A DNA stretch of 64,000 bases from an uncultured Acidobacteriota bacterium (GCA_964524795.1 CAZGEH010000001.1:495298-559297); one strand, 5' to 3'; positions 2,987-58,117 are shown, counted from the stretch's first letter. Numbers and translations are program-made. The notes: generated by a model from the letters alone, not told the origin.

Positions 2987-4270
2987 CTACTCGTGCCGCA
3001 GGGCCTCTACCGGGTCCAGGGCGGCGGCCCGGCGGGCGGGCCAGAAACCGGCGGCCACTCCGACCCCCAGTGACGCCGCAACTCCGGCTGCCACCGCCCA
3101 GTTGGGCGGCACCGCTGAAAAACCCTGCAGCACCAGTTTGAGCAGCAGGCCCAGAGCCACTGACAGTCCCACACCGAGTATCCCGCCGATTCCCGACAGC
3201 ACCGACGCTTCCACCAGAAACTGCGCCAACACCCACCGCCGCCGCGCCCCCAGCGCCAAGCGGAGCCCTACCTCCCGGGTTCGCTCGGTGACGGCAATCA
3301 GCATCACGTTGGCGATCCCGATCCCGCCGATAAGCAGGCTGATCGCCGCCAGAGCGAAAGTGGCGGACGCGATCCGAACACTAAGCTCATCGAAGGTCCG
3401 GATGATGGACTCCGAGGTGGACAAAGTGAAGTCGTCCGGTTGCTCCGGCCGCAATTGCCGCAGCCGGCGCAGAATGAACCGGCTCTGCTCGAAGGCCTGG
3501 TCTCGCTGGCCGGGCTGGGCCCTGATGTAAAGGACGACCCGGTCGGCGCCACTGAACCGCCGCGTGGCGGCTCCCAGAGGGATGGCCAGCACATTGTCCT
3601 GACGATTCTCTCCGAAGAATCCGCCCCGGCGGCGGGCCAGCTCTCCCACAACGATATAGGACTCGCCGGCCAACGTGAGCTTGCGTCCCACAGTGGCTCC
3701 CTCTCCGAACAGGGCGCGAGCGACGTTGGGGCCCACCACCGCTACCCGCGCACCCGCGCGATCCTCCAGTTCACTGAAAGGCCGCCCGGCCCGGAACTCC
3801 GCTCCCACCACGGCGAAGAAATTGGCCGACACCCCCTCCACCAGCACGGTATCGCTTTCGTTCCCACCCGCCCGGGCCACCAGGGGCCGTCCCCCCACCA
3901 CCGACGGAACCTGCAGTTGCACGCCCACCTCGCGCACGGACTCCGCCAGGCGCTCAATCTCCCGGGCAAAGGAAGCCTTCAGCGGCTTCCGGTTCAGCTC
4001 GGCCTCCGTAGCCTCGGCGTAAGGATCGCCGGTAAGGTGGAAGGCAAACACATTTTCCGTACCGAGCTCACGAAACAGCAGGGCCACCTGGTCCCGCAGA
4101 TTCGAAAGGATCGACGCCACCAGCACCACGGTGACGATTCCAATAATCACACCCGATACGGCAAGAAATGACCGCAGCCGGTTCGCCAGCATGGAATCGA
4201 GCGCCTGCCGGCAGGCGTCGGCAAGGGATGAAAGCCAGCGGCTGAGAGGGTTCCGATCCGTTTTCCGCAT
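2987..4270 (-). CDS. ABC transporter permease, MacB/FtsX family
   Basis: C-terminal FtsX-type 4-TM module (LIAVTERTREVGLRLALGARRRWVLAQFLVEASVLSGIGG) and an N-terminal MacB-like periplasmic domain. Start moved to the internal ATG (MRKTDRN..., 4268-4270) because the track ORF extension overlaps the upstream gene. Confidence 0.85.
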   Translation of the reverse strand: MRKTDRNPLSRWLSSLADACRQALDSMLANRLRSFLAVSGVIIGIVTVVLVASILSNLRDQVALLFRELGTENVFAFHLTGDPYAEATEAELNRKPLKASFAREIERLAESVREVGVQLQVPSVVGGRPLVARAGGNESDTVLVEGVSANFFAVVGAEFRAGRPFSELEDRAGARVAVVGPNVARALFGEGATVGRKLTLAGESYIVVGELARRRGGFFGENRQDNVLAIPLGAATRRFSGADRVVLYIRAQPGQRDQAFEQSRFILRRLRQLRPEQPDDFTLSTSESIIRTFDELSVRIASATFALAAISLLIGGIGIANVMLIAVTERTREVGLRLALGARRRWVLAQFLVEASVLSGIGGILGVGLSVALGLLLKLVLQGFSAVPPNWAVAAGVAASLGVGVAAGFWPARRAAALDPVEALRHE

Positions 4271-6901: not shown

Positions 6902-6976
6902 GGGCCGCTAGCTCAATGGTAGAGCAAGTGACTCTTAATCACTAGGTTCCAGGTTCGAGTCCTGGGCGGCTCACCA
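6902..6976 (+). tRNA. tRNA-Lys (anticodon CTT), CCA encoded
   Basis: Cloverleaf folded by hand: acceptor GGGCCGC/GCGGCTC (one G-U), D stem GCTC/GAGC, anticodon stem AGTGA/TCACT with loop CTCTTAA (anticodon CTT), T stem CCAGG/CCTGG with TTCGAGT loop, discriminator A, then CCA. Confidence 0.9.
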
Positions 6977-7141: not shown

Positions 7142-10100
7142 ATGTGGAGAAGCCGGCTCATCTTGACAGCTCTGGTCACCTGCACGCCCAGTCTGTACGC
7201 CCAAACCTCGACCGCCCGGATCTGGGAAGAGGACCTGGTCATTCCAACATGGAAGATCGGCCCTCCCGAAGCGAATCCCACCTTCGAGTGGAGCTCCCGC
7301 CGTCAGGAAGTCTACCCCTATCCCTATAAAGAGATTCTCACTGACGAGAAGACCGACCAGACCTATAGGGCTTGCTGGATCGAGAACGAGTTCATCAAGG
7401 TCCTCGTCCTGCCGGAGATCGGCGGCCGCCTCCATGGAGCACTCGACAAGACCAACGGCTACCGTTTCTTCTACTGGCAGCCCACCATCAGACCGGCACT
7501 TGTAGGGATGACCGGCGCCTGGATCTCCGGAGGAATCGAGTGGAATTTCCCGCATGGACATCGCCCCACCGGTTTCAGCCGGGTCCAGTATCGGCTGGTG
7601 GAGAATCCTGACGGCAGCAGGACAGTCTGGGTTGGAGAGCCGGAACTGGTACATCGGATGCGATGGATCGTCGGGCTGACCGTCTACCCCGGCCGCAGCG
7701 TCATCGAAGCCAAGGTACGACTCTACAACCCCACACCTCTCCGCCACTCGTTCATGATGTGGACCACCACCGCGGTCCATGCCAACGACGATTACCAGGC
7801 TGTCTTCCCCACCCGGGGAATGACTGGACATGGCAAGTACGAATTCTTCAACTGGCCCGTCCATGAAGGGGTGGATATCAGCTGGTGGAAAAACGTGCCC
7901 AACGCGGCCAGCTTCTTTGCCCTGGAGCCAGGCGGATTCTTCGGCGGCTGGGATCACGGCCGCCGGGCGGGGACGGTCATCGTCGGAGACCCGGGGATCG
8001 TCATCGGCAAGAAGTTCTGGACTTGGGGGACGGCACCTTTCGGAAGGCTTTGGGAGCCGATCCTCACCGACGGCGGCGGACCCTACCTGGAACCCCAGGC
8101 GGGAGCCTACTCCGACAACCAGCCTGACTACCACTGGATGGAACCAGGCGAAGTGAAGAGCTTCAGCCATTTCTTCTTTCCGGTCAGGGATATCGGCCTC
8201 TTCAAGGAAGCCAACGTACACGGCGCACTGAACCTGGAGGTGGAGGCCGATGCGCTCCATCTCGGCGTTTACTCCACCGCCATTCTGAAAGGGGCCCGAA
8301 TCCTGGTGCACCGGGGGGAACAGGAAATCTTCAGCCGGACTGTGGATCTTGACCCCGGCCGTCCGTTTGTCCAACGCGTGCCAATGGCAGGGGCGGCTTC
8401 AGATCCCTATGCCTTCCGGCTCTCGCTGGCCGACGCCGAGGGCGAGACTCTGCTCAGCTACCAGCCCAAGCCGACCGAACCGATGACGCTCCCGAAACCG
8501 ACGGAGAATTTCCCGAAACCCGAGGAGATCGCCTTCCAGGACCAGCTCTGGCACGCCGGTGACTGGACCTACAAGTTCCGGGAGCCGGGAGGGGGGCGGG
8601 TCTATTTCGAGGAAGCCCTTAGAAGGGACCCCGGCGATTCCCGATCCAACATCTCGATGGCGGAGCTCGAGATCAAGTCCTTGCGATACGAGCGGGCGCT
8701 GGAGCACCTCCAGCGGGCCGCCGCCCGCGATCCCGATAACGGGCGGATTTTCTATCTTCGCGGTATCGCCCTGGAGGCCCTCGGCCGTTACCGGGAGGCC
8801 CACGATGCCTTCTATCGCGCCAGCCATGCGGAATCTGAACTCGGCCGGGCCAACGCCCGGCTGGCCGCCCTGGCGTTGCGGCGGGGAGACGCCGCAACGG
8901 CGGTCGACTTCATCAGTCGGGCCCTGGAAAACAACTCCCTGAACCCCCAGTGGTGGGATATGAAAGCCACCGCTTTGCGTCACGCCGATCTCAGGGCGGC
9001 GGCGGAAAAGGCTGCCCGGCACGCGCTGGAGCTGGATCCTCTGGACGGCTGGGCCGCCCACGAACTGCACGTCCTCGCTCCCGGCCGCGGTGGCAATGCC
9101 GAGGCCCGTCTGGTCTCGCACCTCCTGCACAACCCCCAGACCGCCCTGGAAACCGTCCTGGGATACATCGGGATGGGGCTGTATCGGGACGCCGATGACC
9201 TGCTGGCGACGGTGCCGGAGGATGCGCTGGTCCGGTACTACCGGGGCTTCGTGGCCGCCCGGCTGGGGGACCAGGAGCGGGCGCGGCGATACTTCCGGCA
9301 GGCGGCGGAGGCATCATTGGACTCGGTCTTCGCCTTTCGCGCCGAAGAAACCGAGGTCTTCCGTACGGCACTGGAGTTCCAGCCTGAGGATGGCCGCGCC
9401 AATTATTTCCTCGGCCTGGTTTATGCCAAGGCTGGAGACGTGGACAAGGCGGCGGCCGAGTGGCAGGAGGCAGTCCGCCTGGAACCGGGAAACGCCCGGG
9501 CCTGGAGAAACCTCGGGCTGGCGCTGGCCCGGCAAGGCCGCGAGGCGCTGCCTCGGGCACTCGAGTGCTATGAAAAGGCGGCCCGCCTGCTGCCGAGGGA
9601 CTCCCGGATCCTCCTCGAGCTGGACGAGATCAGGGAACGGCAGGGCGTCAGCGGCCGCCAGCGGCTGGAAGCCCTCCAACGGCAACGGGAGACAGTCGTG
9701 GAGAGGGACGAGCTGGTAGCCCGGCTGGTGGACCTCCTGATCGCGGAAGGCGACCATGCCGGAGCTCTGGAGTACCTGGATCGCCACCATTTCAACACGT
9801 GGGAGGGCAGTTACGGGATTCACAACGCCTATATCGAGGCCCACGTCGGAGTCGCTGAAAGGTCCAGCGACCCCCGCGAAGCACTGGCCCATTACCTGAA
9901 GGCCTGCGAGTATCCCATGAATCTTGAGGTGGCTCCCAGGGAACCCAACCTGCGTGGATTCCTTTACTACCCCATGGCCCGCCTCTACTCCAAGATCGGG
10001 GACAACACGGAAGCCCGACGGCTGCTCGAAGTGACTGCCGGGGAGAGCACCGAATACCCGACACTCGCCACTTTTTATCAGGCGTTGGCGCTGCGCGATT

Positions 10101-10369
10101 TGGGGCGCGAAGGCGATGCCGCACGACTGCTCTCGGAGCTGGAGGCGGAGGCCCGCCGCCTGATCGGGGCGGACTCCCAGCACTATCGGCGGATGGCAGA
10201 CCAGGACCAGCAGGCCCTGGGCCATTACTACCTGTCCCGGGTGCTTGAAGCTCGGGGCCAGACCCGGGAGGCGCAACAGGAGCTGGATGCCGCCCGGGGG
10301 CTGGAGCCCGGGATCGCCCGCGAAGCGGTCATGATCGCCCAACGCGTTTTTGCCAGGGCTCACCAGTAA
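7142..10369 (+). CDS. secreted DUF5107-like domain protein with long C-terminal TPR repeat region
   Basis: 1075 aa with a signal peptide (MWRSRLILTALVTCTPSLYAQ). The N-terminal about 400 aa resemble the DUF5107 family (motifs FYWQP, GGIEWNFPHGH, FMMWTT). The C-terminal about 600 aa consist of tetratricopeptide repeats (ALEHLQRAAARDPDNG..., YFLGLVYAKAGDVDKAAAEWQEAVRLEP). GGAGGA Shine-Dalgarno. Confidence 0.75.
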   Translation: MWRSRLILTALVTCTPSLYAQTSTARIWEEDLVIPTWKIGPPEANPTFEWSSRRQEVYPYPYKEILTDEKTDQTYRACWIENEFIKVLVLPEIGGRLHGALDKTNGYRFFYWQPTIRPALVGMTGAWISGGIEWNFPHGHRPTGFSRVQYRLVENPDGSRTVWVGEPELVHRMRWIVGLTVYPGRSVIEAKVRLYNPTPLRHSFMMWTTTAVHANDDYQAVFPTRGMTGHGKYEFFNWPVHEGVDISWWKNVPNAASFFALEPGGFFGGWDHGRRAGTVIVGDPGIVIGKKFWTWGTAPFGRLWEPILTDGGGPYLEPQAGAYSDNQPDYHWMEPGEVKSFSHFFFPVRDIGLFKEANVHGALNLEVEADALHLGVYSTAILKGARILVHRGEQEIFSRTVDLDPGRPFVQRVPMAGAASDPYAFRLSLADAEGETLLSYQPKPTEPMTLPKPTENFPKPEEIAFQDQLWHAGDWTYKFREPGGGRVYFEEALRRDPGDSRSNISMAELEIKSLRYERALEHLQRAAARDPDNGRIFYLRGIALEALGRYREAHDAFYRASHAESELGRANARLAALALRRGDAATAVDFISRALENNSLNPQWWDMKATALRHADLRAAAEKAARHALELDPLDGWAAHELHVLAPGRGGNAEARLVSHLLHNPQTALETVLGYIGMGLYRDADDLLATVPEDALVRYYRGFVAARLGDQERARRYFRQAAEASLDSVFAFRAEETEVFRTALEFQPEDGRANYFLGLVYAKAGDVDKAAAEWQEAVRLEPGNARAWRNLGLALARQGREALPRALECYEKAARLLPRDSRILLELDEIRERQGVSGRQRLEALQRQRETVVERDELVARLVDLLIAEGDHAGALEYLDRHHFNTWEGSYGIHNAYIEAHVGVAERSSDPREALAHYLKACEYPMNLEVAPREPNLRGFLYYPMARLYSKIGDNTEARRLLEVTAGESTEYPTLATFYQALALRDLGREGDAARLLSELEAEARRLIGADSQHYRRMADQDQQALGHYYLSRVLEARGQTREAQQELDAARGLEPGIAREAVMIAQRVFARAHQ

Positions 10370-10437
10370 CGGCCCCGACAGCGTGACCGGCAAGGCCTCT
10401 TGCTCCACCCGGGATTTGGAGGCTACCATCTAGCGTC

Positions 10438-10653
10438 ATGGCTCAGGAAGTTGTCATTTACGGAAAGGGCGGCTGACCGTACACCCAGGCTGCCCGTGAG
10501 GAATTCAGCCGAAAGAAGGCCGAGGTCCAGTATCTGGACGTCTCCCGGGATGCATCGGCGCTTCGCCGCATGCTGGAGCTGAACGGAGGCCAACGACGCG
10601 TCCCCACCATCGTCGAAGACGGAAAAGTGTCGGTTGGTTTTGGAGGAACCTGA
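10438..10653 (+). CDS. glutaredoxin/NrdH-like thioredoxin-fold protein, candidate selenoprotein (in-frame TGA at codon 13 read as Sec: motif G-U-P-Y-T)
   Basis: ATG 10438 to TGA 10651 translates as MAQEVVIYGKGG[TGA]PYTQAAREEFSRKKAEVQYLDVSRDASALRRMLELNGGQRRVPTIVEDGKVSVGFGGT. This aligns with Grx/NrdH (VxIYxK..CPYC...VPxIfidg...GG), and the TGA (10474-10476) falls exactly at the first Cys of the CPYC active site. A SECIS-like hairpin starts 11 nt downstream. An in-frame upstream stop at 10384 fixes the start. Confidence 0.65.
10488..10510 (+). promoter_or_regulatory. bSECIS-like stem-loop downstream of in-frame UGA
   Basis: GGCUG-CC-CGUGA-GG-AAUU-CAGCC: 5-bp plus 2-bp stem with a GU-containing apical loop. 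It begins 11 nt after the UGA (10474-10476), which is the canonical bacterial SECIS spacing. Confidence 0.5.
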
Positions 10654-10695
10654 GGGGTTTAGGACCGGCGGTCCGCCGGTCCCGAGGATCATACG

Positions 10696-11733
10696 ATGAG
10701 TGAAATCCGGATCGGGATCGTGGGCTTGGGCTGGGTGGCTGGAGCCCACATCGAGGCTTTCCGGCAGGTGGAGGGAGCCCGGGTGGCGGCGGTGTGCTCG
10801 CGGCGTCCCCAGGATCAGGCTGCCCTGGAGCGCCGGTTCGGCCTGCCGCTCAAGGCCTGTCAGGACTATCAGGCGATGCTGGCGGACCCCGATCTGGATG
10901 TGATCGACATCTGCACCCCTCACCCGCTGCATCCCGAACAGGCGATCGCCGCGGCCCGGGCCGGGAAACACCTGATCATCGAAAAGCCGCTCGCCACTAC
11001 CTGGGAATCCGCCAAGGCACTCCGGGACGCTGTCCTCGGCAGCGGTGTCAGGGTGTGTGTCTGCTTCGAATGCCGATTCAGCAAGCACTTCAGTCTGATC
11101 CGGTCCGTCATCGAAGAGGGCTTGCTGGGCGACTTGCACTACGCCGAAGTCGACTACTACCACGGGATCGGACCCTGGTACGGGCAGTTCGGATGGAACA
11201 TCCGGAAAGACATGGGCGGCAGCAGCCTGTTGACGGCGGGATGCCATGCCCTGGACGGGCTGCTATTCTTCAAGGACTCCCCGGTGGTGGAGGTGGTCAG
11301 CCATTCCAACCGCTCGTCCAGCGAGACGTTCCAGCCCTATGAATACGACACGACATCGGTGACACTGCTGAAGTTCGCCGACGGTTCGCTCGGCAAGGTG
11401 GCGTCGGTGATCGATTGCCATCAGCCCTACTACTTCCACATCCACCTGGTGGGGAGTCACGGCAGCCTGCTGGACAACCGACTCTACTCCACCCGGCTGG
11501 CGGGTCTGAGCAAGGAGCGCTGGAGCACCCTGGAGACGTCGCTGATCGACTCGGGGGATGTCAAGGATCATCCCTATCTGCCTCAGTTCCAAGCATTTGT
11601 CAACAGTCTCCGCCGCGGCGAGAACATGCCGAGAACCGACTTCGCGACTGCTTGGGAAACGCACCGCGTGGTGTTTGCCGCCGACCGTTCGGCGGCCGAG
11701 GGCCGGCCCGTTCGCCTGGAGGAACTCGTCTAA
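10696..11733 (+). CDS. Gfo/Idh/MocA family NAD(P)-dependent oxidoreductase
   Basis: N-terminal Rossmann motif [19 protein letters not shown] and the EKP motif ([12 protein letters not shown]) typical of the family. 345 aa. Confidence 0.9.
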
Positions 11734-19750: not shown

Positions 19751-20644
19751 CTACCAAAGTCGCTCCGGGTACAACCCCTGCTTCCTCAGATTCTCAAGCT
19801 CCGCGCGAACCGCCGGTACGTCCTCGCGATAGGTGACACCGAACCACCGGTCACGGGACGGAAGCACCCGGACGACGGCTGTTCGGGCGGCGATCAGCTC
19901 ATTGACCACCGTCGGGAGGAAAAACTCCTGTTTCAGGTCATCCCCGTATCTCTCCAGAAAGTGCCGGAAAGAAGCAGCCAGCGGCTGCAAGAATTCCGGC
20001 GTGAACCCCCACAGGTTCATGGATACCAGCTCGTCACCGGACAACGGATGGGGGTGTCCTTCCTCATCGAAATACCGGGCGCTCCCCTCACCGGCAGGCT
20101 CGATGCGGGTCCGCTCCACAATGCTGAGCAGGTGCATCGACGGGTCGACGCTGCAGACCCCACGCGCCACGCTGCCGTGCGCCGACAGGGTGTTGCGAAG
20201 GCGGTACCCCACCAGGGCGTACTCGCCGGAGCCTGCCTCCAGATGGCGTGCCATCAGGGCCAGCGAGTCCCGGCCGTAGAAGTCGTCAGCATTGATGACC
20301 GCAAACGGCTCATCCAGCAGTTGGCGCGCCGTCAGCACGGCATGACCAGTTCCCCAGGGCTTGACCCGTCCGGCTGGCGGGAGCCGGCTGCCCAGTCCCA
20401 CCTCCAGCGTCTGGTCCACCAGCACGCAGGGGATCCTGCGCTGGAAACGGCAAACAAATCGGGCCTCGAAGACGTCGTGAATCTCGGGCCGTACCACAAA
20501 AACAACTCTGCCGAAGCCCGCCTCGACAGCGTCGAACACCGAGTATTCCAGGAGGGTTTCTCCGGCCGGCCCGACTCCCTCCATCTGCTTGAGACCGCCG
20601 TAACGGCTGCCGATTCCGGCCGCCATGACCAGCAATATAGGCAC
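19751..20644 (-). CDS. sugar-1-phosphate nucleotidyltransferase (MurU / GlmU-N-like NTP transferase)
   Basis: N-terminal nucleotidyltransferase signature MPILLVMAAGIGSRYGGLKQ, then a GT-A-like fold. 6 bp upstream of the kinase, so an operon. Confidence 0.8.
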   Translation of the reverse strand: MPILLVMAAGIGSRYGGLKQMEGVGPAGETLLEYSVFDAVEAGFGRVVFVVRPEIHDVFEARFVCRFQRRIPCVLVDQTLEVGLGSRLPPAGRVKPWGTGHAVLTARQLLDEPFAVINADDFYGRDSLALMARHLEAGSGEYALVGYRLRNTLSAHGSVARGVCSVDPSMHLLSIVERTRIEPAGEGSARYFDEEGHPHPLSGDELVSMNLWGFTPEFLQPLAASFRHFLERYGDDLKQEFFLPTVVNELIAARTAVVRVLPSRDRWFGVTYREDVPAVRAELENLRKQGLYPERLW

Positions 20645-20794
20645 CGCTCTCTCCTCAGGGCGGCAATATAGCAGTTCTGCGAGACTGGAACCTGCTCACC
20701 GCCGTCTCCTCCGCCTGCGGCAGCGGTCTCGGAGCAGGGCCAGGCGAACCGGTCCGGGGGACGCGCGGGACCTTTTCCTGTACGATGCACCGTC

Positions 20795-22633: not shown

Positions 22634-23563
22634 TTAGTGGAAACCGAAAAGTTCCTTGTCCTGGCTGAGCCGGATGAGAAAGTCTTCGGCCAGGGCGCCC
22701 ACCCCGTCCGGTTCCAGACCGACGGCCTTCCAGATCGCCTCCGCGTCCACCGTCTCCGCCACCCGCCGGACAGGGCCGATGCCCAGGCTGTGACAAAGCC
22801 AGTTCGATGCCTGCACCAGGACGGACAGCTCATGGAAAAGGACTGACCGTTCCGGCTCGTGGTGGCAGGTCACGACCTCCGCGATCGCATCCGGCAGATT
22901 CCAGGCCTCGGCCACCAGTTCGCCGGCCTCGGTGTGAGTCCAACCCAGATAGGCGCGTTCCGCCTCCAGAGTTGAAAGATCCGGGTTGGCCTCGGCACAG
23001 GCGACTGCTTCCAAAAAAGCCTGCGGAAACTGCAGATCGAACAGGATCTTGCCCACATCGTGAAGCAGGCCGGCCACAAAAGCGTCGTCGGGGTCCGCCA
23101 GCCGCGTCCGCGCCGCGATCTCGCGGGCGGCCAGAGCCGCTCCCAAGGCATGTTCCCAAAGCTGGCGCCCTTGGGGAGTCTTGCGAATCACACCGCCCAG
23201 CGAAGCAGCGATGACGACCCCCCGGATTTTCCGATTCCCCAGCAGCACGGCTGCATCACGAACGGTCCGGATCTCCCGGGTCCGCCGGAAGAAGGCGGAG
23301 TTGGCAATCCGTAGCACCCTGGCGGTCAAAGCCTGGTCGCGGGCGATCAAATCGCTGAGTTCGCCGACGCCCAGGTACAGGTCCGACGTCATCTCCAGAA
23401 TGCGCCAGGCCACTTCCGGAAGGGGAGGGAGTACATCAATATCGAGCACCGGCCGGGTGGGAACGGAGCCCGCCGGATGCAGCAAGTCGGGAGATCGCCC
23501 CATCGCGCTGTTCATGGCGCTCCCATTAGAAGACGGGCGGGCGTCGGCGGTCCGTGACGGCAC
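22634..23563 (-). CDS. HDOD domain signalling protein
   Basis: HDOD signature (LRIANSAFFRR...TVRDAAVLLG...LLHDVGKILF...CHHEPE). Abuts the upstream UroD-like gene with a 0-bp gap. The N-terminal start is uncertain. Confidence 0.75.
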   Translation of the reverse strand: MPSRTADARPSSNGSAMNSAMGRSPDLLHPAGSVPTRPVLDIDVLPPLPEVAWRILEMTSDLYLGVGELSDLIARDQALTARVLRIANSAFFRRTREIRTVRDAAVLLGNRKIRGVVIAASLGGVIRKTPQGRQLWEHALGAALAAREIAARTRLADPDDAFVAGLLHDVGKILFDLQFPQAFLEAVACAEANPDLSTLEAERAYLGWTHTEAGELVAEAWNLPDAIAEVVTCHHEPERSVLFHELSVLVQASNWLCHSLGIGPVRRVAETVDAEAIWKAVGLEPDGVGALAEDFLIRLSQDKELFGFH

Positions 23564-27364: not shown

Positions 27365-28543
27365 TCAGCTTCGGCTCAGAAGTGCCACCGCCTCGGCAGC
27401 AATGCCTTCCCCGCGGCCGATGGCTCCCCGGCCCTCCATTGTGGTGGCCTTGATGCCCACCTGGCGGGCTGAGATTTGCAGGGTACGGGCGATATTGGCT
27501 TTCATCGCCCCCACATGGGGCCGGAGGCGAGGCCGCTCCGCCAACACCGTCAGGTCCACGTTGACAACATGGAATCCCCTGCCCCGGATCAGCCGGAACA
27601 CCTTTTCCAGAAGAAGCAGGCTGGAGGCTCCCCGATATCGTTCGTCGCTGTCCGGAAACAGGCTGCCGATATCGCTCATGCCGGCGGCTCCCAGCAGGGC
27701 ATCCATCAGGGCATGCAGCGGAGCGTCCGCGTCGGAATGGCCCAGCAACCCACATTCATGTGGAATCTCGACTCCCCCCAGGAAAAGGGGGCGTCCCGGC
27801 GCAAAAGGATGGAAATCGAACCCGTGACCGATCCGCAGTTCGGGTGGACCGCCGCCAAGGGCAGATTCCAGCCGCCGCAGATCTTCCGGCCAGGTGATCT
27901 TGACGTTTCCCGCCTCACCCTCCACCGTGTGCACCTCTCCAAACCGTTCCGCCAGGGTGGCCTCGTCGGTCGCCGTGAGTCCTTCGCGGGCGGCCATGTC
28001 CAGGGCGCGGCGCAACAGCTCCGCAGCGAAGCCCTGCGGGGTTTGGGCCAGCGCCAGCCGCTCCCGGGACAGGGTCCGAGTCACCTTCCCCTGCCGCACT
28101 TCCTTCACCGTGTCGGGAATCGGAACCACGGGAACACAAGCTCCCCAGAGGCGGGTTGCTGCCAAAACCCTCTCTACCAGCCTTGCACTGACCAGCGGTC
28201 GTGCGGCGTCGTGGACCAGCACCCACTCCACACTTGGCAACTGGAACAGCCCCCGGCGGACAGACTCCTGCCGGGTCTCACCGCCGGCGATAACGCTCAG
28301 GCGGCCTTCCGGATCCAGCTCCTTCACTTCGCCGGCAGTGCGTTCGACGAAGTCGGGCGGGACAACAACCACTCCCCGGTCAATCCATGGAAGCAGGGTT
28401 TCCAGACCAACCTGATACAGCGGACGCCCCCGAAACGGCAGGAACTGTTTGGGGACAGCTCCCCCGGCTCGGGAGCCGCTCCCGGCAGCAGCCAAGATCA
28501 GCCCCACGCAGTCCTTGGTCGGTGATGAACCACCCGTCGCCAT
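27365..28543 (-). CDS. ispDF: bifunctional 2-C-methyl-D-erythritol 4-phosphate cytidylyltransferase / 2,4-cyclodiphosphate synthase
   Basis: N-terminal IspD (ILAAAGSGSRAGGAVPKQF) fused to C-terminal IspF (RIGHGFDFHPF...GHSDADAPLHAL). Confidence 0.95.
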   Translation of the reverse strand: MATGGSSPTKDCVGLILAAAGSGSRAGGAVPKQFLPFRGRPLYQVGLETLLPWIDRGVVVVPPDFVERTAGEVKELDPEGRLSVIAGGETRQESVRRGLFQLPSVEWVLVHDAARPLVSARLVERVLAATRLWGACVPVVPIPDTVKEVRQGKVTRTLSRERLALAQTPQGFAAELLRRALDMAAREGLTATDEATLAERFGEVHTVEGEAGNVKITWPEDLRRLESALGGGPPELRIGHGFDFHPFAPGRPLFLGGVEIPHECGLLGHSDADAPLHALMDALLGAAGMSDIGSLFPDSDERYRGASSLLLLEKVFRLIRGRGFHVVNVDLTVLAERPRLRPHVGAMKANIARTLQISARQVGIKATTMEGRGAIGRGEGIAAEAVALLSRS

Positions 28544-39251: not shown

Positions 39252-41270
39252 TCACTTGCCGGACAAAGAAGCCCTTAGTGTCTCGAGTTTCCTCCGGACC
39301 CGTTCGGACTCCTCTTCCTTCTCGGCATGCCGGATCGACAGCTCGTAGCACCGGCGGGCTTCCTCCGCATTCCCTTTGCGGGCATAGAGGTCGCCGAGAT
39401 GCTCCAGGATGACAGGGTCGGTCCGCTGCAGGCGAACCGCCTTCTTCAGGTGGAGCTCCGCATTGACCAGATCGTCCTGCTTGAAATAGACCCAGCCAAG
39501 GCTGTCCTGGTAGGCGCCGTTGTACGGATCCAGCTCCACCGCCCGGAGAAGATACTGGCGGGCCTCTTCCAGGCGGACACCGCGGTCCGCCAGCATATAG
39601 CCCAGGTAGTTGAGCACGTCGGCCTGGTCCGGGTTTCGCCGGAGGATGTCCAGAAACTGGCGTTCGGCGGCTTCGTAATCTTTCAGCCGCTCCAGAACCG
39701 CTCCCATCTGGAACTGAAGCTGTTCACTGTCGGGAAACCGGGTCAAAGCCGAACGCACGACTTCCTGGGCCCTCTCGAACCGGTCCCGCGCCAGATACAG
39801 TTGGCTGGCGGCCAAAAGGAGAGCCTCAGGTTCCTCGGCGTCGACCGCCGCTTCCCGCAGAAACCGGACGCCGTCGTCCACCCGGCCGTCCGCCGCCAGC
39901 GCCTGGCCTCGAGCGATCAGAACATAAGTGTTCCTCGGGGCTTCCTTCAGCAGTTCATCCGACAACTGCTTCAGCTCGTCCACGCGACCGGCCCGCTGGA
40001 GGGTATAGAAGAGGCGAAGGCGTCCGTCGAGATCGTCGCCTCCCAGCTCCCGCGCTTCTTTCAACAAGGCGATGGCTTCGTCGAAGCGCCCTTCTTCCTC
40101 CCGGATCAGGGCGAGGTTGGTGAGGAAGATGCCACGATAGGGTTTCACGGCAGGCCGCGAGGATTGGAGCATCTCCTCGATCCGTTGGGCGGCCTTCTCC
40201 CGCTCGCCCATCATCAGCATCACGCTGGTGTACTCGTAATTGACGTGCACACTGTCGGGGTCGGCGGCCAGCAGCGATTCCAGCAACTCGGCAGCCTCGG
40301 CGAGACGGCGTCCCTGGCGGTAGGCCCGGGCCAAATCCAGCTTGAGTTCCGGCTGCGAAGGATGGATCTGCACCAGCCGCTGCAGGAAATCGATGGACTC
40401 CTCTCCCCGCCCCAGGGCCACCAGAGTCCGGGCCAGTCCTTCGTTCAGCCTGGGATCAGGACCGTGCGCCAATCCCCGGCGATAGACTTCCTCGGCCTGT
40501 TCCAGCTCGCCCCGGCTGCGGTATAACCCGGCCAGCATCAGAATGTACTCCGGGATGTCGTCCCGGATCTTGAGCCCCTCCCGGAGAATCGCGATCGCCT
40601 CTTCAATCCGGTTGAGCTCCACCAGGGCCTGCGCCTCGAAGTAATACCCCTTGATCGAGGAGGGGCTGGCTTGCCGGAGCTGACGGAACAGTTCTGCGGC
40701 ACGGGCGTATCTCCCGCTCTGGAAATGGAGATCGGCCGCATACTGCAGAGCTTCCAGGTTGGACGGATCGAGAGTCAGCACCGATTCGAACTCGGCGAGA
40801 GACTTCTCTCTCATGTTCGGCTGCTCCCGCGAGCTGTAGTAGATCCGTCCCAGCAGCAGGAGGGGCTCCGGATCCCCCGGATCCATCTCGACCGCCTCGC
40901 GGCACACCTCGACCGCCCGGGCGATCTCGCCCGCCTGCAGGAGCAGCTCGGCCACCCGGGTGCGCAAACCTGCGTCCCGCGCTCTCATCTTCAGCACGGC
41001 TTCGCACTGCTCGACGGCCCGGTTGTTCTCACCCGCCTGCAGCAGGGTATCCGCGAATTCCAGCCGCAGATCCACACTGGACGGATTCAGTTCCAGGGCC
41101 TTGCGGTACTCCGCCACCGCCTCCGGGAATTCATCCCGAAACTGCAGCAGCTTCGCCCTTGAAAAGTGATAGTAGGACTGGGCGAGGTCCGAGGACTGCG
41201 CCGGCGCCCGGAGAGCACACAACGCCATCCCCATCATCACTCCCAAGACCCACTTGAGCGGCTGCCTCAT
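39252..41270 (-). CDS. secreted tetratricopeptide-repeat protein
   Basis: Signal peptide (MRQPLKWVLGVMMGMALCALRAPAQS) followed by about 16 TPR units across 672 aa. Confidence 0.85.
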   Translation of the reverse strand: MRQPLKWVLGVMMGMALCALRAPAQSSDLAQSYYHFSRAKLLQFRDEFPEAVAEYRKALELNPSSVDLRLEFADTLLQAGENNRAVEQCEAVLKMRARDAGLRTRVAELLLQAGEIARAVEVCREAVEMDPGDPEPLLLLGRIYYSSREQPNMREKSLAEFESVLTLDPSNLEALQYAADLHFQSGRYARAAELFRQLRQASPSSIKGYYFEAQALVELNRIEEAIAILREGLKIRDDIPEYILMLAGLYRSRGELEQAEEVYRRGLAHGPDPRLNEGLARTLVALGRGEESIDFLQRLVQIHPSQPELKLDLARAYRQGRRLAEAAELLESLLAADPDSVHVNYEYTSVMLMMGEREKAAQRIEEMLQSSRPAVKPYRGIFLTNLALIREEEGRFDEAIALLKEARELGGDDLDGRLRLFYTLQRAGRVDELKQLSDELLKEAPRNTYVLIARGQALAADGRVDDGVRFLREAAVDAEEPEALLLAASQLYLARDRFERAQEVVRSALTRFPDSEQLQFQMGAVLERLKDYEAAERQFLDILRRNPDQADVLNYLGYMLADRGVRLEEARQYLLRAVELDPYNGAYQDSLGWVYFKQDDLVNAELHLKKAVRLQRTDPVILEHLGDLYARKGNAEEARRCYELSIRHAEKEEESERVRRKLETLRASLSGK

Positions 41271-44044
41271 TGCGCTCCCACTGCCGAAACAAACTGGAGA
41301 TTGTCGGCGAAAAACAGCTCGATCCCCGCCAGCGGCTGGTCGGATCGGACGCGGAGATAGCCTCCCACCTGGGCAGGGAGGTCGGGAAACAGGTCGATCA
41401 GCAGGGAGGTCAGCCGCTGTCCGGGTTCCAGGAACGCATCGCGGGCACGGACCGTCTCGCCGTCGCTCTTGTGCACCTCGATGGTTAGCTGGGCCGGTTC
41501 ATCCCCCGGATTGACCAATGCCAGGCCCGTGGAAAGCCCCAACCCCTGAGCCACGTGCGAAAAGACCAGATCCTCGGACAGGCTCCACGACAACGGCAGG
41601 CTGGTCATCGCCTTTCCCTGGAAAAGCTGGATCTCCGCGCTGCCTACCAGGCCCGGCTTGTCCGATTCCGCCACCAGCCAGCCCCCGATGGCGGTCCCGG
41701 GGTCCTGGAGCCCGAACCATTCCTGGATGCTCCGGCGCAGCGAGACCCCGGCCCCCAGCTCTACCGTCACCGGGGCGGCCAGGGCCGCTCCCTCGTCATC
41801 CAGCAGGGTCAGGGTCACCTGGATCGGGATCTCGACGGTGGTGTCCTGGTCATTCTGCTTGCGGGGATTGGAGTTCACCAGCTTGAGAAAGGTGTCCGCC
41901 CCCCCGAAGACCGCCACCTGGGGCACCAGCAGCCGCGTGGGTTGCGGGTCTCGGACAGACACGGGGGTCCCCAACAGGGACGACATGCGTTCGCCGTCGA
42001 AGTAACGGGCATAAGCGACCACACCGGTGGCGGTGTTCACCACCAGGTAGCCGTCCACCCAATTCTGGAAGGCGCTTTCCGGAAACAGCGCGATGTTTTG
42101 TTGGTCGTTGGGATCAGGGTCCCGGACGGGGGCTGAGTACAGGCTGCGGGCGGGGACCTGCCGGTTGAAGGTACCCAGTACCTTGCCGTCCTGGCCCACC
42201 AGGTTAACTGTGTAGTTCGCCGTCTGCCGGTTGGGATTGAGCACCGTCAACTCGGTGACCATGCCGCCGGTAACCCGGGCTTCGGGAACCACCACCTTTT
42301 GCGATGTCACACCCGTCGCCACTGTCCCGTCCAGACGTTTGAGGTTGTGGTCACCCGTCAGAAAAAAGCTCTTCAGAGCCGGCTGGTCCGAATCCAGATC
42401 GAACCATCCCTCCACTTTCGCCCCGCCGGCTGCCACAATGATCTCCTCGCTGGTCCGGGCCAGTTGCGCCCCTGGGGCCAAAGTAATTATCCGTGGGTTC
42501 ACAAACTCCACCACGTCGGTGGTGTCTGACTTGTCGGCAAACTGGATTCCGGTGTTGGAGAGACCGGTGACGATGACTTCGGCCGCTTCCGTCGAGGCGT
42601 TGGTCAGAGCGATGCCGGTGAAGAGGCTGGAATCGGAAGCCGCCCGGGGTACGAACCAGTAGTCTGTCCTGCGGACCAGATCAATAGTGTTGGCATTGAA
42701 GTTCAGCACTACCAGCACACTCTGGTCCGGGGTGTAGGCCAACTGCAGCGGTGCGGAGGAAATCTTGGAGCCGCCCCGGTCGACCTGACCGCCAATCTCC
42801 ACAAAGCGGGGGAACTCGTCGGTGAGGAGGTTGAAGACCATCAATGTGTCGCTGAGCGGCGCCGCCACGTACATCCAGCGTCCGTCGGGCGAGAAAACCG
42901 GCCGCGAACGGGGCCGGAATTCGCTGCGCAGGGGCAGCAGCCGCCGCGCCTCGGCGGCACCCGGTTCGATGACGGCGAATTCCAGCGCCGACATGACCAC
43001 AAATCGGCCCGAGGGAGCCCAGTAGCTGGCAGTGGCGACGCCCCCCACGTTGTATTTCTTGAATTCGCCCTTGGTGAAGTCGATGAGCCAGGCACGGTCG
43101 GTCGACAGCTCCGGTATCAGCGCCGCACCGCTGAAGGTCTGGTCGGCAATCATGCCGTACTTGCCATCGGCGGAAATCGCCACCGTCGTGGTGGCCGTGA
43201 AATCATGGATGATCGGCTCTTCCGTCACCCCGGGGCCCGTCCGGGGGGCCAGCGTCCGCACGATCTGGAAGGAGACCGGGTCGACGATGGCCACCGCATC
43301 GGGGTGCTCCAGCCGGTTCAGGTTGGTGGATCCCACCAGCACCACCGTCATGAAACTGAAGTCCGGGGCCATGGTCATGGAGGTAGGCCGGCTGCCGGGG
43401 GTGAACTTGAGCCGCGGGCCGACCTCCGTCATCGTGTCCACGTCGAAGCGGATGAGCTCGTCGGTGGCGGCGGAAGCGACGAAACCGGTCTTGCCGTCGG
43501 CCGAGAACAGGATATTGTTGGCAAACGAAAGGAAAACCTCCGTCAAGTCCAGGCGGCGCACGGCGTGGGTCGCCGCATCGATCATGGCGATGGTCGCGAC
43601 CTGTTCTCCGAGAAAGTTGCGTCCGGATTCAGGCAGATTCCGCAAAAGCTCCAGGCACACCACGCCGAAGGCACTGCCGTCGGGCGTCATCGTGATCTGG
43701 GACGGGTTCTTGCCTACCGTGATCAGATCGAGGATTTCGCCAGTCTTGGGGTTGAAGGCGAGGACCTTGTCCGAGCCGCTGAAGCTGACGAAGGCCTTGC
43801 TGGAATCGGCCGTGAATTCGATGTTGGGAGCGAAGTTCAGGTCGACCGTCGAGGTGGAACTGCGGCTGATGCCACCCGACTCCACCACTCCCGGGCCCAC
43901 GGGGACCAGGTTCACATCGAACTTCAGTTTGTCGTCCAGCTTGGCGGGCTCGATGGTCTTGAACCTCCGCTGAGCCTGGGCTGCTCCGCAGACCGCAAGC
44001 AGAACCACCGGGATGGCGATCCAACGACGAACCAGACGCACCAT
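41267..44044 (-). CDS. secreted YVTN-type beta-propeller repeat protein with C-terminal domain of unknown function
   Basis: Signal peptide MVRLVRRWIAIPVVLLAVCGAAQAQ. Repeated YVTN-like units (ITMTPDGS, FSADGKTGFVAS, AISADGKYGMIAD, VFSPDGRWMYVAA). About 925 aa. 4-bp overlap with the downstream TPR gene. Confidence 0.7.
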   Translation of the reverse strand: MVRLVRRWIAIPVVLLAVCGAAQAQRRFKTIEPAKLDDKLKFDVNLVPVGPGVVESGGISRSSTSTVDLNFAPNIEFTADSSKAFVSFSGSDKVLAFNPKTGEILDLITVGKNPSQITMTPDGSAFGVVCLELLRNLPESGRNFLGEQVATIAMIDAATHAVRRLDLTEVFLSFANNILFSADGKTGFVASAATDELIRFDVDTMTEVGPRLKFTPGSRPTSMTMAPDFSFMTVVLVGSTNLNRLEHPDAVAIVDPVSFQIVRTLAPRTGPGVTEEPIIHDFTATTTVAISADGKYGMIADQTFSGAALIPELSTDRAWLIDFTKGEFKKYNVGGVATASYWAPSGRFVVMSALEFAVIEPGAAEARRLLPLRSEFRPRSRPVFSPDGRWMYVAAPLSDTLMVFNLLTDEFPRFVEIGGQVDRGGSKISSAPLQLAYTPDQSVLVVLNFNANTIDLVRRTDYWFVPRAASDSSLFTGIALTNASTEAAEVIVTGLSNTGIQFADKSDTTDVVEFVNPRIITLAPGAQLARTSEEIIVAAGGAKVEGWFDLDSDQPALKSFFLTGDHNLKRLDGTVATGVTSQKVVVPEARVTGGMVTELTVLNPNRQTANYTVNLVGQDGKVLGTFNRQVPARSLYSAPVRDPDPNDQQNIALFPESAFQNWVDGYLVVNTATGVVAYARYFDGERMSSLLGTPVSVRDPQPTRLLVPQVAVFGGADTFLKLVNSNPRKQNDQDTTVEIPIQVTLTLLDDEGAALAAPVTVELGAGVSLRRSIQEWFGLQDPGTAIGGWLVAESDKPGLVGSAEIQLFQGKAMTSLPLSWSLSEDLVFSHVAQGLGLSTGLALVNPGDEPAQLTIEVHKSDGETVRARDAFLEPGQRLTSLLIDLFPDLPAQVGGYLRVRSDQPLAGIELFFADNLQFVSAVGAQ

Positions 44045-44119
44045 AGAAAGGTCATTATACGGCTTCATAGAATTCCCGCGACCCGCCCCCCCACACCTCC
44101 CCCGAAGGCAAGGATCGAT

Positions 44120-57895: not shown

Positions 57896-58117
57896 CGGCA
57901 AGCGGATGCTTCCCGGGGTTCCTCGGAACCGGCTGATCCCGGGTTCCGGGGTCCCAGAGTTCCAGCGTAGCGCCCAGCCTCCGAACCGTGACCTCGCCAC
58001 GGCAGACCGCTCGCTCGCTGGCGCCTGCGCTCTGAACAAGTCAGCGCCTTCGGCGTCCCAAGCACCCGCCTTGGGATGGGGAATCGCTCAGCCACCGGCG
58101 GGCTATATACTGGGCGG

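What the first reader, a model, noticed from the sequence alone, without database searches (positions are those of the whole stretch)
10438..10653. Candidate glutaredoxin-like selenoprotein: in-frame UGA at the CPYC catalytic position plus SECIS-like hairpin
The 71-codon ORF aligns along its whole length with glutaredoxin/NrdH (IYGK, CPYC region, cis-Pro VPTI, C-terminal GG). Its only interruption is a TGA exactly where the N-terminal catalytic Cys sits, giving G-U-P-Y-T (Sec-x-x-Thr, with the resolving Cys replaced by Thr). A hairpin (GGCUG-CC-CGUGA-GG-AAUU-CAGCC, GU in the apical loop) begins 11 nt after the UGA, the spacing bacterial SelB/SECIS needs. Homology, TGA position and SECIS-like structure together make Sec decoding more likely than a pseudogene. 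A UxxT redox motif in a minimal Grx fold would be an unusual selenoprotein variant.
Basis: partly seen in the sequence, partly recalled or inferred. Interest (0 to 1): 0.78.

Follow-up and report, generated by a model that had tools for sequence, protein, structure and literature searches.

The report
Known double-selenocysteine glutaredoxin-like gene

Summary
Window 10438-10653 reads as a glutaredoxin-fold ORF with TGA (10474-10476) at the first CPYC position, and the described hairpin starts 11 nt later. The gene model is incomplete. The supposed stop TGA (10651-10653) is followed by GGG GTT TAG and a 9-bp hairpin (10662-10682). With both TGAs read as Sec, the 74-residue product matches NCBIfam NF041114, "UXX-star selenoprotein family 1", end to end (110.8 bits, cutoff 72). 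A 2026 review lists this family with a UxxT motif and two Sec. All 120 rows returned by a metagenome DNA-pattern scan were UPYT members; nearly all complete ones also carry the U-X-X-stop tail. Of 198 unique family genes, 188 end in TGA + 2 codons + stop, and five end in Cys-X-X-stop. Both downstream hairpins fit the bacterial SECIS model and show covariation. Cys-form genes lack the site-1 signal. Both TGAs are identical in three assemblies. No selA, selB, selD or tRNA-Sec lies in the roughly 83 kb examined, so the organism's Sec machinery is untested. Verdict: a new, uncalled member of a known family in an Acidobacteriota MAG. Its function has not been tested; I infer a Sec13/Sec72 redox pair. 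Interest is low.

The parts
10438..10662 (+). Full coding sequence of the UXX-star family 1 glutaredoxin-like selenoprotein: 74 codons plus a TAG stop. Product: MAQEVVIYGKGG-U-PYTQAAR...VGFGGT-U-GV.
   Evidence: Translation. NF041114 scores 110.8 bits against a cutoff of 72, covering profile positions 1-70 of 70. PF00462 scores 43.4 bits.
10474..10476 (+). UGA-1, read as Sec13 in the U-P-Y-T motif (first position of the CxxC-type active site).
   Evidence: Homologues carry Cys here (CPYT in 37 of 77 database proteins). All 120 returned metagenome loci carry TGA here with the reading frame conserved on both sides.
10488..10510 (+). SECIS-1, inside the coding sequence. [quoted passage not shown] These are nucleotides 23-24 counted from the U of the UGA.
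   Evidence: Fold of -8.5 kcal/mol. In 113 distinct Sec-form sequences the 21-27 pair covaries (CG 71, UA 26, UG 7) and the 20-28 pair is invariant CG. GU falls within nt 22-26 in 91/114 Sec forms against 1/21 Cys forms, p = 4e-11.
10651..10653 (+). UGA-2, read as Sec72, three codons before the true stop (the 'UXX-star' position).
   Evidence: 188 of 198 unique family genes have TGA + 2 sense codons + stop at this point. UGV is the commonest tail (111). Five homologues have Cys-X-X-stop instead.
10660..10662 (+). True stop codon, TAG.
10662..10682 (+). SECIS-2, lying almost wholly in the 3' untranslated spacer. It has a 9-bp stem (GGACCGGCG / CGCCGGUCC) and the loop G10671 U10672 C10673. These loop bases are nt 21-23 from the U of UGA-2.
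   Evidence: Fold of -20.4 kcal/mol, z = -2.1. On alignment A2 (114 sequences), 83.3% of cells are paired against 31-48% for slid controls. The covariation score is 0.609 against at most 0.15, with 0/500 shuffles reaching it, and all 6 pairs show compensatory changes. No U-tract follows the stem and no terminator is called.

Best explanation
This is a genuine gene for a 74-residue glutaredoxin-fold selenoprotein of the catalogued 'UXX-star selenoprotein family 1' (NCBIfam NF041114). It contains two selenocysteines. Each UGA is most likely recoded by SelB-GTP-Sec-tRNA(Sec) bound to its own hairpin. SECIS-1 lies inside the coding sequence and presents G23 U24 in its apical loop. SECIS-2 starts at the last base of the real stop codon and presents G21 U22. 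UGA-2 is only three codons from the stop, so SECIS-2 is free of coding constraint. If UGA-2 is read as stop, only three residues are lost, which is why homologues with Cys13 are annotated as complete 68-70-aa 'glutaredoxins'. In this window UGA-1 also splits the ORF at codon 13, so gene callers miss the gene entirely.

Inferred mechanism of the protein (not shown): Sec13 in U-P-Y-T is the attacking nucleophile at the N-terminus of helix 1. The classical resolving Cys is replaced by Thr16. The fold ends right after the GG loop that lines the active-site groove, without the usual C-terminal helix. The short tail G-G-T-U-G-V then places Sec72 where glutathione's Cys sits in ordinary glutaredoxins. 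Sec13 and Sec72 would therefore cycle between two selenols and an intramolecular selenenylselenide, giving a small diselenide oxidoreductase.

I put the gene identity and double Sec decoding at about 0.9. I put the Sec13-Sec72 redox pair at about 0.45. The substrate is unknown.
For: Family membership: NF041114 scores 101.6 bits without the tail and 110.8 bits over profile 1-70/70 with it; the cutoff is 72. [quoted passage not shown]

Cys/Sec pairs exist at both positions. CPYT Cys forms are seen. C-terminal Cys-X-X-stop forms (L042, L046, L052, L056, L074) are seen.

116 sequences including the window had an intact second TGA; the rest were cut by contig ends, and L095 is degenerate. 188/198 unique genes end in TGA + 2 codons + stop.

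SECIS-2: covariation as given. The loop centre falls 20-25 nt after the UGA in 146/187 genes, G is in the first two loop positions in 168/187, and a U-tract follows in only 9/187. Among Cys-tail forms, 0/5 have such a loop.

SECIS-1: synonymous-site covariation. At the conserved Ala-Arg codons, Sec forms use GCC/GCU plus CGU/AGG/CGG (0/114 CGC), while Cys forms use GCG plus CGC (17/21). Both window hairpins meet most or all of the published bSECIS constraints quoted (see the membership table).

Not an error: both TGAs are identical in JGI 3300043177, JGI 3300043267 and Logan SRR12687342. TGA is an ordinary stop elsewhere in the window.

Link to Sec machinery elsewhere: selB lies directly upstream of family members in 11 Chloroflexota loci.

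Fold: an AlphaFold2 model of the closest Cys13 homologue P0001 has pLDDT 93.6 and a b-a-b-a-b-b topology with no C-terminal helix. Its best structural matches are glutaredoxins and NrdH, including GSH-bound forms.
Against: No selA, selB, selD or tRNA-Sec was found in the window or in about 9-10 kb of contig beyond each end. Sec competence of this organism is therefore inferred, not shown.

SECIS-1 in this particular gene is weak. Its upper stem is only 2 bp, against the model's 4-16 bp. Its energy is -8.5 kcal/mol, and it is indistinguishable from shuffles in isolation. No Rfam family matches either hairpin.

The redox-pair mechanism rests on fold reasoning only.

CPYC-type relatives keep the tail Sec as well as the resolving Cys. 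The tail is therefore not simply a replacement for that Cys.

The review suggests the family's Sec residues may instead bind metals. Gene neighbourhood is not conserved and gives no functional clue.
Confidence: 0.85

Rival explanations
1. Same gene and same double Sec decoding, but the two selenolates serve as a soft-metal or metalloid ligand pair (Hg, As, Cu, Zn chaperone, sensor or detoxification) rather than as a catalytic redox couple.
For: [quoted passage not shown] Loss of the resolving Cys (Thr16) is compatible with a non-catalytic site.
Against: No metal-resistance or transport genes sit next to the gene in this window. The neighbours are a DUF5107/TPR protein, a Gfo/Idh/MocA oxidoreductase and a DUF5916 protein. 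No such neighbour recurs across 201 loci; the recurrent ones are a ThyX-like protein, nuo subunits, an ABC ATPase and TIM. The fold and the conserved cis-Pro and GG loops are those of thiol-disulfide oxidoreductases.
Confidence: 0.3
2. Pseudogene or assembly error: one or both TGAs are true stops, and the ORF is a decaying glutaredoxin gene.
For: The gene is not called in any public assembly of this contig. SECIS-1 alone is not statistically distinguishable from shuffled sequence. No Sec machinery was seen in about 83 kb.
Against: The sequence is identical in three assemblies. There is a full-length above-cutoff match to a curated selenoprotein model. The same two TGAs at the same columns occur in more than 110 distinct metagenomic genes, with the frame conserved after each. 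A stop falls exactly two codons after TGA-2 in 188/198 genes. The RNA hairpins covary. Codon choice is specific to Sec forms.
Confidence: 0.03
3. The hairpin at 10662-10682 is an intrinsic terminator or an mRNA-stabilising stem-loop, not a SECIS, and TGA 10651 is the real stop.
For: It is a strong GC-rich stem immediately after an apparent stop codon.
Against: There is no U-tract. The scan calls no terminator. Only 9/187 family hairpins are followed by a U-tract. The next gene starts 33 nt after the stop, with its own GAGGA ribosome-binding site at 10684-10688. Loop position (nt 20-25 after the UGA) and a leading G are conserved in the family, while Cys-tail homologues lack the hairpin (0/5). 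The two codons and the stop after the TGA are conserved.
Confidence: 0.04
4. UGA is reassigned genome-wide (to Trp or Gly, as in genetic codes 4 or 25), so the residues are not Sec.
For: None specific.
Against: Several well-supported genes in the window end in TGA exactly where their Pfam domains end, for example at 25786, 38332, 45893 and 23566. Homologues align Cys, not Trp or Gly, at both columns.
Confidence: 0.01

Closest known systems
UXX-star selenoprotein family 1 (NCBIfam NF041114; 'Distant Grx-like protein 1' in Zhang et al. 2026, PMC13188914)
   Same: Full-length profile match above the curated cutoff. It also shares the UxxT active-site motif, the two Sec residues, the U-X-X-stop C-terminus and the roughly 70-residue Grx fold.
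   Different: Nothing substantive. This copy is uncalled in the public assemblies that carry it. It has a comparatively weak, interrupted SECIS-1 stem, of the same type as L100 and L143 rather than the continuous 6-bp stem seen in about half of the members.
Sec-containing glutaredoxin with a UxxC motif (the review's 'Glutaredoxin (Grx), PF00462, UxxC, 1 Sec'). Related solved structures are Clostridium oremlandii cGrx1 (7c10/7c12) and cGrx2 (4tr0/4tr1).
   Same: Grx fold, with Sec or Cys at the first active-site position. These are the closest solved structures by sequence (7c12, E = 4.3e-5) and by fold (TM 0.75-0.80).
   Different: Those proteins keep the resolving Cys (CPHC/UxxC), have the C-terminal helix (73-92 residues) and have one Sec at most. 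This protein has Thr at the resolving position, no C-terminal helix and a second Sec in a three-residue tail. It scores far below the cutoffs of the classical Grx models (TIGR02181 36.8 against 90).
NrdH / YruB-type small glutaredoxin-like redoxins (TIGR02194, TIGR02196; PDB 1h75, 4hs1, 3zit)
   Same: Small size, Trx/Grx fold, and a VP (cis-Pro) and GF motif arrangement. Structural matches reach TM 0.75-0.83.
   Different: Model scores fall well below cutoff: 19.3 against 85.75 for NrdH and 39.4 against 88.55 for YruB. NrdH has a CVQC dithiol site and no Sec.
C-terminal Gly-Cys-Sec-Gly tail of mammalian thioredoxin reductase, and the UxxU diselenide of SelL (both from my own knowledge, not tested here)
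   Same: The working principle I propose: a flexible C-terminal Sec that shuttles to, or resolves, a buried redox centre, and a selenenylselenide as the oxidised state.
   Different: There is no homology. TrxR is a large flavoenzyme with a Cys-Sec pair within the tail. SelL has both Sec in one UxxU motif. Here the two Sec are 59 residues apart in a 74-residue protein.
Bacterial SECIS consensus (Zhang and Gladyshev 2005 model as quoted in PMC13188914) and the E. coli fdhF SECIS
   Same: The apical loop has G followed by U. It begins 18-19 nt (site 1) and 17 nt (site 2) after the UGA. Energies are at or below -7.5 kcal/mol. G23 U24 at site 1 is the same numbering as in fdhF (from my own knowledge).
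   Different: SECIS-2 is untranslated 3' spacer RNA rather than coding sequence. SECIS-1 has only a 2-bp upper stem above an internal loop. No Rfam model matches either.

Membership tests
[quoted passage not shown] | Score at or above the curated whole-protein cutoff of the equivalog HMM, over its full length | tested here: met
   110.8 bits against a cutoff of 72, profile 1-70/70, residues 5-74. Without the tail: 101.6 bits, profile 1-67/70.
[quoted passage not shown] | Sec (or Cys) followed by exactly two residues and a stop codon at the C-terminus | tested here: met
   TGA GGG GTT TAG at 10651-10662. The same architecture is found in 188/198 unique relatives, and UGV is the commonest tail.
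[quoted passage not shown] | UxxT active-site motif and two Sec, as listed in PMC13188914 | tested here: met
   G-U-P-Y-T at codons 12-16, with the second Sec at codon 72.
Bacterial selenoprotein gene (general criteria) | Cys-containing homologues align Cys to each in-frame UGA | tested here: met
   Position 13: CPYT, CPYC and CPHC forms. Position 72: Cys-X-X-stop in L042, L046, L052, L056 and L074.
Bacterial selenoprotein gene (general criteria) | bSECIS after UGA-2: 3-9 nt loop, 4-16 bp upper stem, G in the first two loop positions, 16-37 nt spacing, MFE at or below -7.5 kcal/mol | tested here: met
   9-bp stem, loop GUC, 17 nt spacing, -20.4 kcal/mol. Family covariation is strong.
Bacterial selenoprotein gene (general criteria) | bSECIS after UGA-1, same constraints | tested here: inconclusive
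   The loop (C)GUGA with G-U, the 18-19 nt spacing and the -8.5 kcal/mol energy meet the model. The upper stem is only 2 bp above an internal loop, with a 5-bp lower stem. Family-level support is good: 21-27 covariation, codon bias specific to Sec forms, and GU at nt 22-26 in 91/114 against 1/21.
Bacterial selenoprotein gene (general criteria) | selA, selB, selD and tRNA-Sec present in the same genome | not testable with these tools
   None in the 64-kb window (tRNA scan; Pfam scan of 40 ORFs). None in about 9-10 kb of contig beyond each end. The rest of the 310.7-kb JGI contig and the 854-kb longest contig on record could not be fetched. selB is adjacent to family members in 11 Chloroflexota loci.
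Bacterial selenoprotein gene (general criteria) | Selenium actually incorporated at the UGA positions | not testable with these tools
   Requires 75Se labelling or mass spectrometry.
Classical dithiol glutaredoxin (Grx3/GrxA types; TIGR02181, TIGR02180, TIGR02183) | Above-cutoff model score, a CPYC site with a resolving Cys, and a C-terminal helix after the GG loop | tested here: not met
   TIGR02181 scores 36.8 against 90, and TIGR02180 scores 30 against 87.25. Thr occupies the resolving position. The model of the closest homologue ends after strand 4 with no helix 3.
NrdH-redoxin (TIGR02194) | Above-cutoff model score | tested here: not met
   19.3 bits against a cutoff of 85.75.
Glutaredoxin fold superfamily (Pfam PF00462) | Pfam gathering score, and a structural match to solved Grx | tested here: met
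   43.4 bits against 22.9. The AF2 model of homologue P0001 matches Grx/NrdH structures with TM 0.75-0.83 and probability 1.00.

The most novel reading that the evidence does not exclude
Sec13 and Sec72 form a reversible intramolecular diselenide. The resolving residue is supplied by a three-residue C-terminal tail that occupies the glutathione groove of a helix-less Grx fold. That would make this family a natural, self-contained bacterial diselenide oxidoreductase with an unusually low redox potential. Placing UGA two codons before the stop would be a general evolutionary trick that moves the SECIS out of the coding sequence. In this window SECIS-2 also sits 1 nt upstream of the next gene's ribosome-binding site, so Sec availability might additionally gate translation of the downstream Gfo/Idh/MocA oxidoreductase.
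Probability: 0.3. Interest if true: 0.55.

Novelty: new member of a known kind. Interest (0 to 1): 0.25.

Why it matters
There are three practical points. First, the gene is invisible to standard gene callers: none of the public assemblies of this contig calls it. Its Cys13 relatives are routinely annotated three residues short as plain 'glutaredoxin 3'. Selenoproteomes of soil and sediment Acidobacteriota, Chloroflexota, Ignavibacteria and Zixibacteria are therefore under-counted. Second, the data here add comparative support that I did not find in the papers I could read. This covers position-specific covariation for both SECIS elements, a Sec-form versus Cys-form codon-usage contrast at site 1, five Cys-tail homologues, and selB adjacency in Anaerolineae. 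Third, the family has no experimentally known function. A 74-residue protein with two Sec is a compact system for studying a possible natural diselenide and 3'-UTR-located bacterial SECIS elements. None of this changes current understanding, because the family and its motif are already catalogued.

Tried and rejected
- Rfam scan of 9500-11500 at E <= 10 found nothing relevant and no SECIS family hit.
- Single-sequence folding statistics for SECIS-1 were not significant (z = -0.07 and -0.79). I therefore relied on comparative tests.
I modelled the closest Cys13 homologue without its tail instead. The distance between residues 13 and 72 could not be measured.
- Search for Sec machinery: tRNA scan, Pfam scan of 40 window ORFs and about 9-10 kb of contig beyond each window end. 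No selA, selB, selD or selC was found.
- A screen of the window for other in-frame-TGA genes found only adjacent same-frame genes, antisense artefacts and an ordinary radical-SAM gene end.
- Gene-neighbourhood clustering over 201 loci found no neighbour in more than about 12% of loci, so context gives no functional inference. In the double-Sec subgroup the best cluster covers 9 of 120 loci.
- The terminator and promoter scan around the gene found none.
- The primary description of the UXX-star families (Haft and Tolstoy 2025, PMC12013261) is not held in the library. The GOS paper's main text lists only 'Grx-like UxxC'. The statement that the family is published with UxxT and 2 Sec therefore rests on the 2026 review table and the NCBIfam model name.
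- My first tail-tabulation script had a frame error and was redone.

Full report
OBSERVATION. Window 10438-10653 (+) translates to MAQEVVIYGKGG*PYTQAAREEFSRKKAEVQYLDVSRDASALRRMLELNGGQRRVPTIVEDGKVSVGFGGT*. The single internal stop is TGA at 10474-10476, where glutaredoxins carry the first Cys of CPYC. With Cys substituted, Pfam Glutaredoxin scores 43.4 bits against a cutoff of 22.9. It begins 11 nt after the UGA. Taken alone it is weak: -8.5 kcal/mol with z = -0.79, and z = -0.07 for a 57-nt stretch. The description is accurate, but nothing in this single sequence proves function.

The 'stop' at 10651-10653 is also TGA. It is followed in frame by GGG GTT TAG. A perfect 9-bp hairpin follows at 10662-10682 (GGACCGGCG-GUC-CGCCGGUCC), with an energy of -20.4 kcal/mol and z = -2.1. 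[quoted passage not shown] Adding the three extra residues (U/C-G-V) extends the match to 1-70/70 and raises the score to 110.8 bits. 'UXX-star' means Sec, two residues, stop. The gene is therefore 10438-10662, its product has 74 residues, and it contains two Sec codons.

THE FAMILY IS KNOWN. [quoted passage not shown] The classical glutaredoxin and NrdH models score far below their cutoffs. The gene belongs to the Grx fold superfamily but is not a classical Grx or an NrdH.

COMPARATIVE EVIDENCE THAT BOTH UGAs ARE SEC.
- Database proteins related to the query are 68-70-residue 'glutaredoxins' with CPYT, CPYC or CPHC that stop at GFGG[TSY].
- Their DNA in 80 genome loci continues TGA-G-[VIFMY]-stop almost without exception. 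The source phyla are Acidobacteriota/Vicinamibacterales, Chloroflexota/Anaerolineae, Ignavibacteria, Zixibacteria and Thermoleophilia.
- That scan required Cys at position 13. I therefore scanned metagenome contigs with a DNA pattern that requires TGA there (TWYGGNAARN6TGACCNTAYACN7GCNMG). Every row is a UPYT member with the frame conserved beyond the TGA; nearly all complete ones continue to GFGG[TS]-U-G-V-stop. 116 sequences including the window had an intact second TGA.
- Over all loci, 188 of 198 unique genes end in TGA + two sense codons + stop. The tails are UGV (111), UGI (19), UGF (12) and others.
- Five of the ten exceptions have Cys-X-X-stop at the same place (Nitrolancea hollandica L042, plus L046, L052, L056 and L074).
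- The Cys/Sec-pair criterion is thus met at both columns.

SECIS-2. MAFFT alignment of the 42 nt starting at UGA-2 from 114 distinct double-Sec genes shows a hairpin at a fixed place with many different stem sequences. Examples are CCGGC/GCCGG, CUCAU/AUGAG, CCGAU/AUCGG and CUCCC/GGGAG.
- RNAalifold finds 6 pairs, all with compensatory changes in 13-45 sequences.
- The pair count gives 83.3% of cells paired, against 31-48% when the 3' partner is slid by 1-3 columns.
- The covariation score is 0.609 against at most 0.15, and 0 of 500 shuffles reach it.
- Over 187 Sec-tail genes, the loop centre lies 20-25 nt after the U of UGA in 146.
- G is in the first two loop positions in 168, and only 9 hairpins are followed by a U-tract.
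- None of the five Cys-tail genes has such a hairpin.
- The window's hairpin has 17 nt of spacing, the loop GUC and 9 bp. This meets every constraint of the published bSECIS model quoted. No terminator is called there.

SECIS-1. This element lies in coding sequence, so overall folding energy is uninformative: Sec forms average -13.3 kcal/mol and shuffles -13.5. Position-specific tests are informative.
- In the ungapped alignment of 113 distinct Sec-form sequences, nt 20-28 is an invariant C-G pair.
- Nt 21-27 joins two synonymous third positions and covaries (CG 71, UA 26, UG 7, unpaired 8).
- About half the genes extend this to a continuous 6-bp stem. The others, including the window, have an internal loop and an outer stem whose sequence varies (GGCUG/CAGCC here, GGCGG/UCGCC, GCCGC/GCGGC).
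- At the conserved Ala-Arg codons (nt 19-24), Sec forms use GCC/GCU followed by CGU, AGG or CGG, and never CGC (0/114). This places G23 followed by U24 or G24 in the loop.
- Cys forms with the same amino acids use GCG-CGC in most cases (CGC in 17/21).
- GU occurs within nt 22-26 in 91/114 Sec forms against 1/21 Cys forms (Fisher p = 4e-11). Nt 23/24 sit in a predicted apical loop in 63/114 against 1/21.
- The window carries the majority Sec-form codons GCC CGU GAG. G23 U24 is also the loop position of the E. coli fdhF SECIS (from my own knowledge).
- The two groups come from different lineages, so relatedness inflates these statistics somewhat. The effect is nonetheless large.

NOT AN ARTEFACT. 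The 258 nt containing the gene are identical in JGI metagenome 3300043177 (310.7-kb contig), JGI 3300043267 and Logan SRR12687342. None of these assemblies has a gene call there. TGA terminates ordinary genes elsewhere in the window, so genome-wide reassignment is excluded.

CONTEXT. DnaB places the contig in Acidobacteriota: all named best hits, at 65-72% identity, are Acidobacteriota MAGs. The gene lies 68 nt after a 1075-residue DUF5107/TPR protein. It lies 33 nt before a Gfo/Idh/MocA oxidoreductase, whose GAGGA ribosome-binding site starts 1 nt after SECIS-2. A DUF5916 protein, an Lrp/AsnC regulator and an aminotransferase follow on the same strand. No promoter-like site is called between these genes. 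The rest of the window holds housekeeping genes, including DnaB, a RadA-like ATPase, L9, H+-PPase, Pth, PRPP synthase, a GHMP kinase and Ppk.

No selA, selB, selD or tRNA-Sec lies in the window or in about 9-10 kb of contig beyond each end. Sec competence of this organism is therefore inferred from the gene itself. Elsewhere, selB lies immediately upstream of family members in 11 Chloroflexota/Anaerolineae loci. Other neighbours are lineage-specific. A Thy1-domain protein appears in about 25 loci, mostly in the Cys13 genome-derived set (dominated by Acidobacteriota). NADH-quinone oxidoreductase antiporter-like subunits appear in about 24 loci; the one I checked is from Zixibacteria. None is general.

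FOLD AND MECHANISM. An AlphaFold2 model of the closest Cys13 homologue (P0001, 69% identical, 54-sequence alignment) is confident (pLDDT 93.6). Its topology is b1-a1-b2-a2-b3-b4, and the chain ends five residues after strand 4, without the C-terminal helix of ordinary Grx. Its best structural matches are Clostridium oremlandii cGrx1 and cGrx2 (including GSH- and GSSG-bound forms), Archaeoglobus Grx, the E. coli Grx3-GSH complex, NrdH and BC3987, with TM 0.75-0.83. The best sequence match among solved structures is 7c12, at E = 4.3e-5.

Established knowledge of Grx structures (from memory, not tested here) says that the cis-Pro loop (here RVPT) and the GG loop after strand 4 (here GFGG) flank the active-site residue and form the groove that holds glutathione's cysteine. 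The tail T-U-G-V starts right at that loop. I therefore infer that Sec72 can reach Sec13, and that the pair cycles between two selenols and a selenenylselenide. This would take over the role of the resolving Cys, which is Thr16 in this family. This step is inference. The main rival is that the two selenolates chelate a soft metal or metalloid, as the review suggests. One caution applies: CPYC-type relatives keep both the resolving Cys and the tail Sec, so the tail is not merely a substitute for that Cys.

VERDICT. The Sec interpretation is supported, but the gene model was incomplete and the novelty claim was wrong. This is a new, uncalled member of a catalogued double-selenoprotein family. 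Its biochemical function has not been tested. Interest is low (0.25). The residual interest lies in the untested diselenide chemistry and in the 3'-UTR placement of a bacterial SECIS.

Noticed in passing
L201:531-2474 and L201:3001-3135; also L007, L013, L017, L018, L019, L023, L024, L029, L041, L053: In Chloroflexota/Anaerolineae, selB (PF09106/PF09107 domains) lies directly upstream, on the same strand, of the UXX-star Grx-like gene. In L201 one small DUF498 gene sits between them. This is a physical link between the family and the Sec-insertion machinery.
   Followed up: partly
L078 and L080 (gene end, near 3190-3210 in each locus): Two relatives (Solirubrobacterales and Pyrinomonadaceae MAGs) have TGA followed by three sense codons and then TGA (GRG-U-RVH, PRG-U-TIS). 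This is a tail one residue longer than the UXX-star rule.
   Followed up: no
L095 (around 1297-1500) and L066 (3001-3260): These family copies lose the reading frame or the conserved C-terminal half (L095 after about 42 codons, L066 after PVIVDAG). They are probably decayed copies or assembly errors.
   Followed up: no
L027:3250-4851 and about 24 other loci, mostly in the Cys13 genome-derived set: A protein of about 533 residues with a Thy1 (ThyX, flavin-dependent thymidylate synthase) domain is the commonest neighbour of the Cys13 forms. It often lies within 60-500 nt, either downstream on the same strand or divergent upstream.
   Followed up: partly
L075:3259-4704 and about 23 other loci: The CPYC-type UXX-star genes are embedded among NADH-quinone oxidoreductase antiporter-like subunit genes (PF00361), typically about 70 nt away on the same strand. 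L075, the representative I checked, is from a Zixibacteria MAG.
   Followed up: partly
window 10369-10696 (= L202 9674-10001): Public gene calls on the same contig (JGI Ga0484859_0000020 and others) leave this 326-nt interval empty. The selenoprotein gene is missed by standard annotation.
   Followed up: yes
window 41267-44119 (-), 27473-28525 (+), 19751-20695 (-), 57992-58831 (+): These long ORFs have coding-like GC3 but no Pfam match at E <= 1e-5. The largest is 950 residues.
   Followed up: no
window 6902-6976 (+): tRNA-Lys (CTT) is the only tRNA in the window. It sits between the efflux-pump genes (MacB-like permeases, HlyD-family adaptor) and the DUF5107/TPR gene.
   Followed up: no
window 10684-10698: The ribosome-binding site (GAGGA, 10684-10688) and start codon (10696) of the downstream Gfo/Idh/MocA gene begin 1 nt after the 3' arm of SECIS-2. 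SelB binding or hairpin melting could in principle influence its translation.
   Followed up: no
L208 (window right flank, contig Ga0484859_0000020 184900-205739): A flagellar and motility cluster (MotA/MotB, flagellin, FlaG, FliD, FliS) lies just beyond the window's right end. An MCP gene sits at 829-2916 and two HDOD-domain genes at 22634-23563 and 62220-63059. The Acidobacteriota host therefore appears motile and chemotactic.
   Followed up: no
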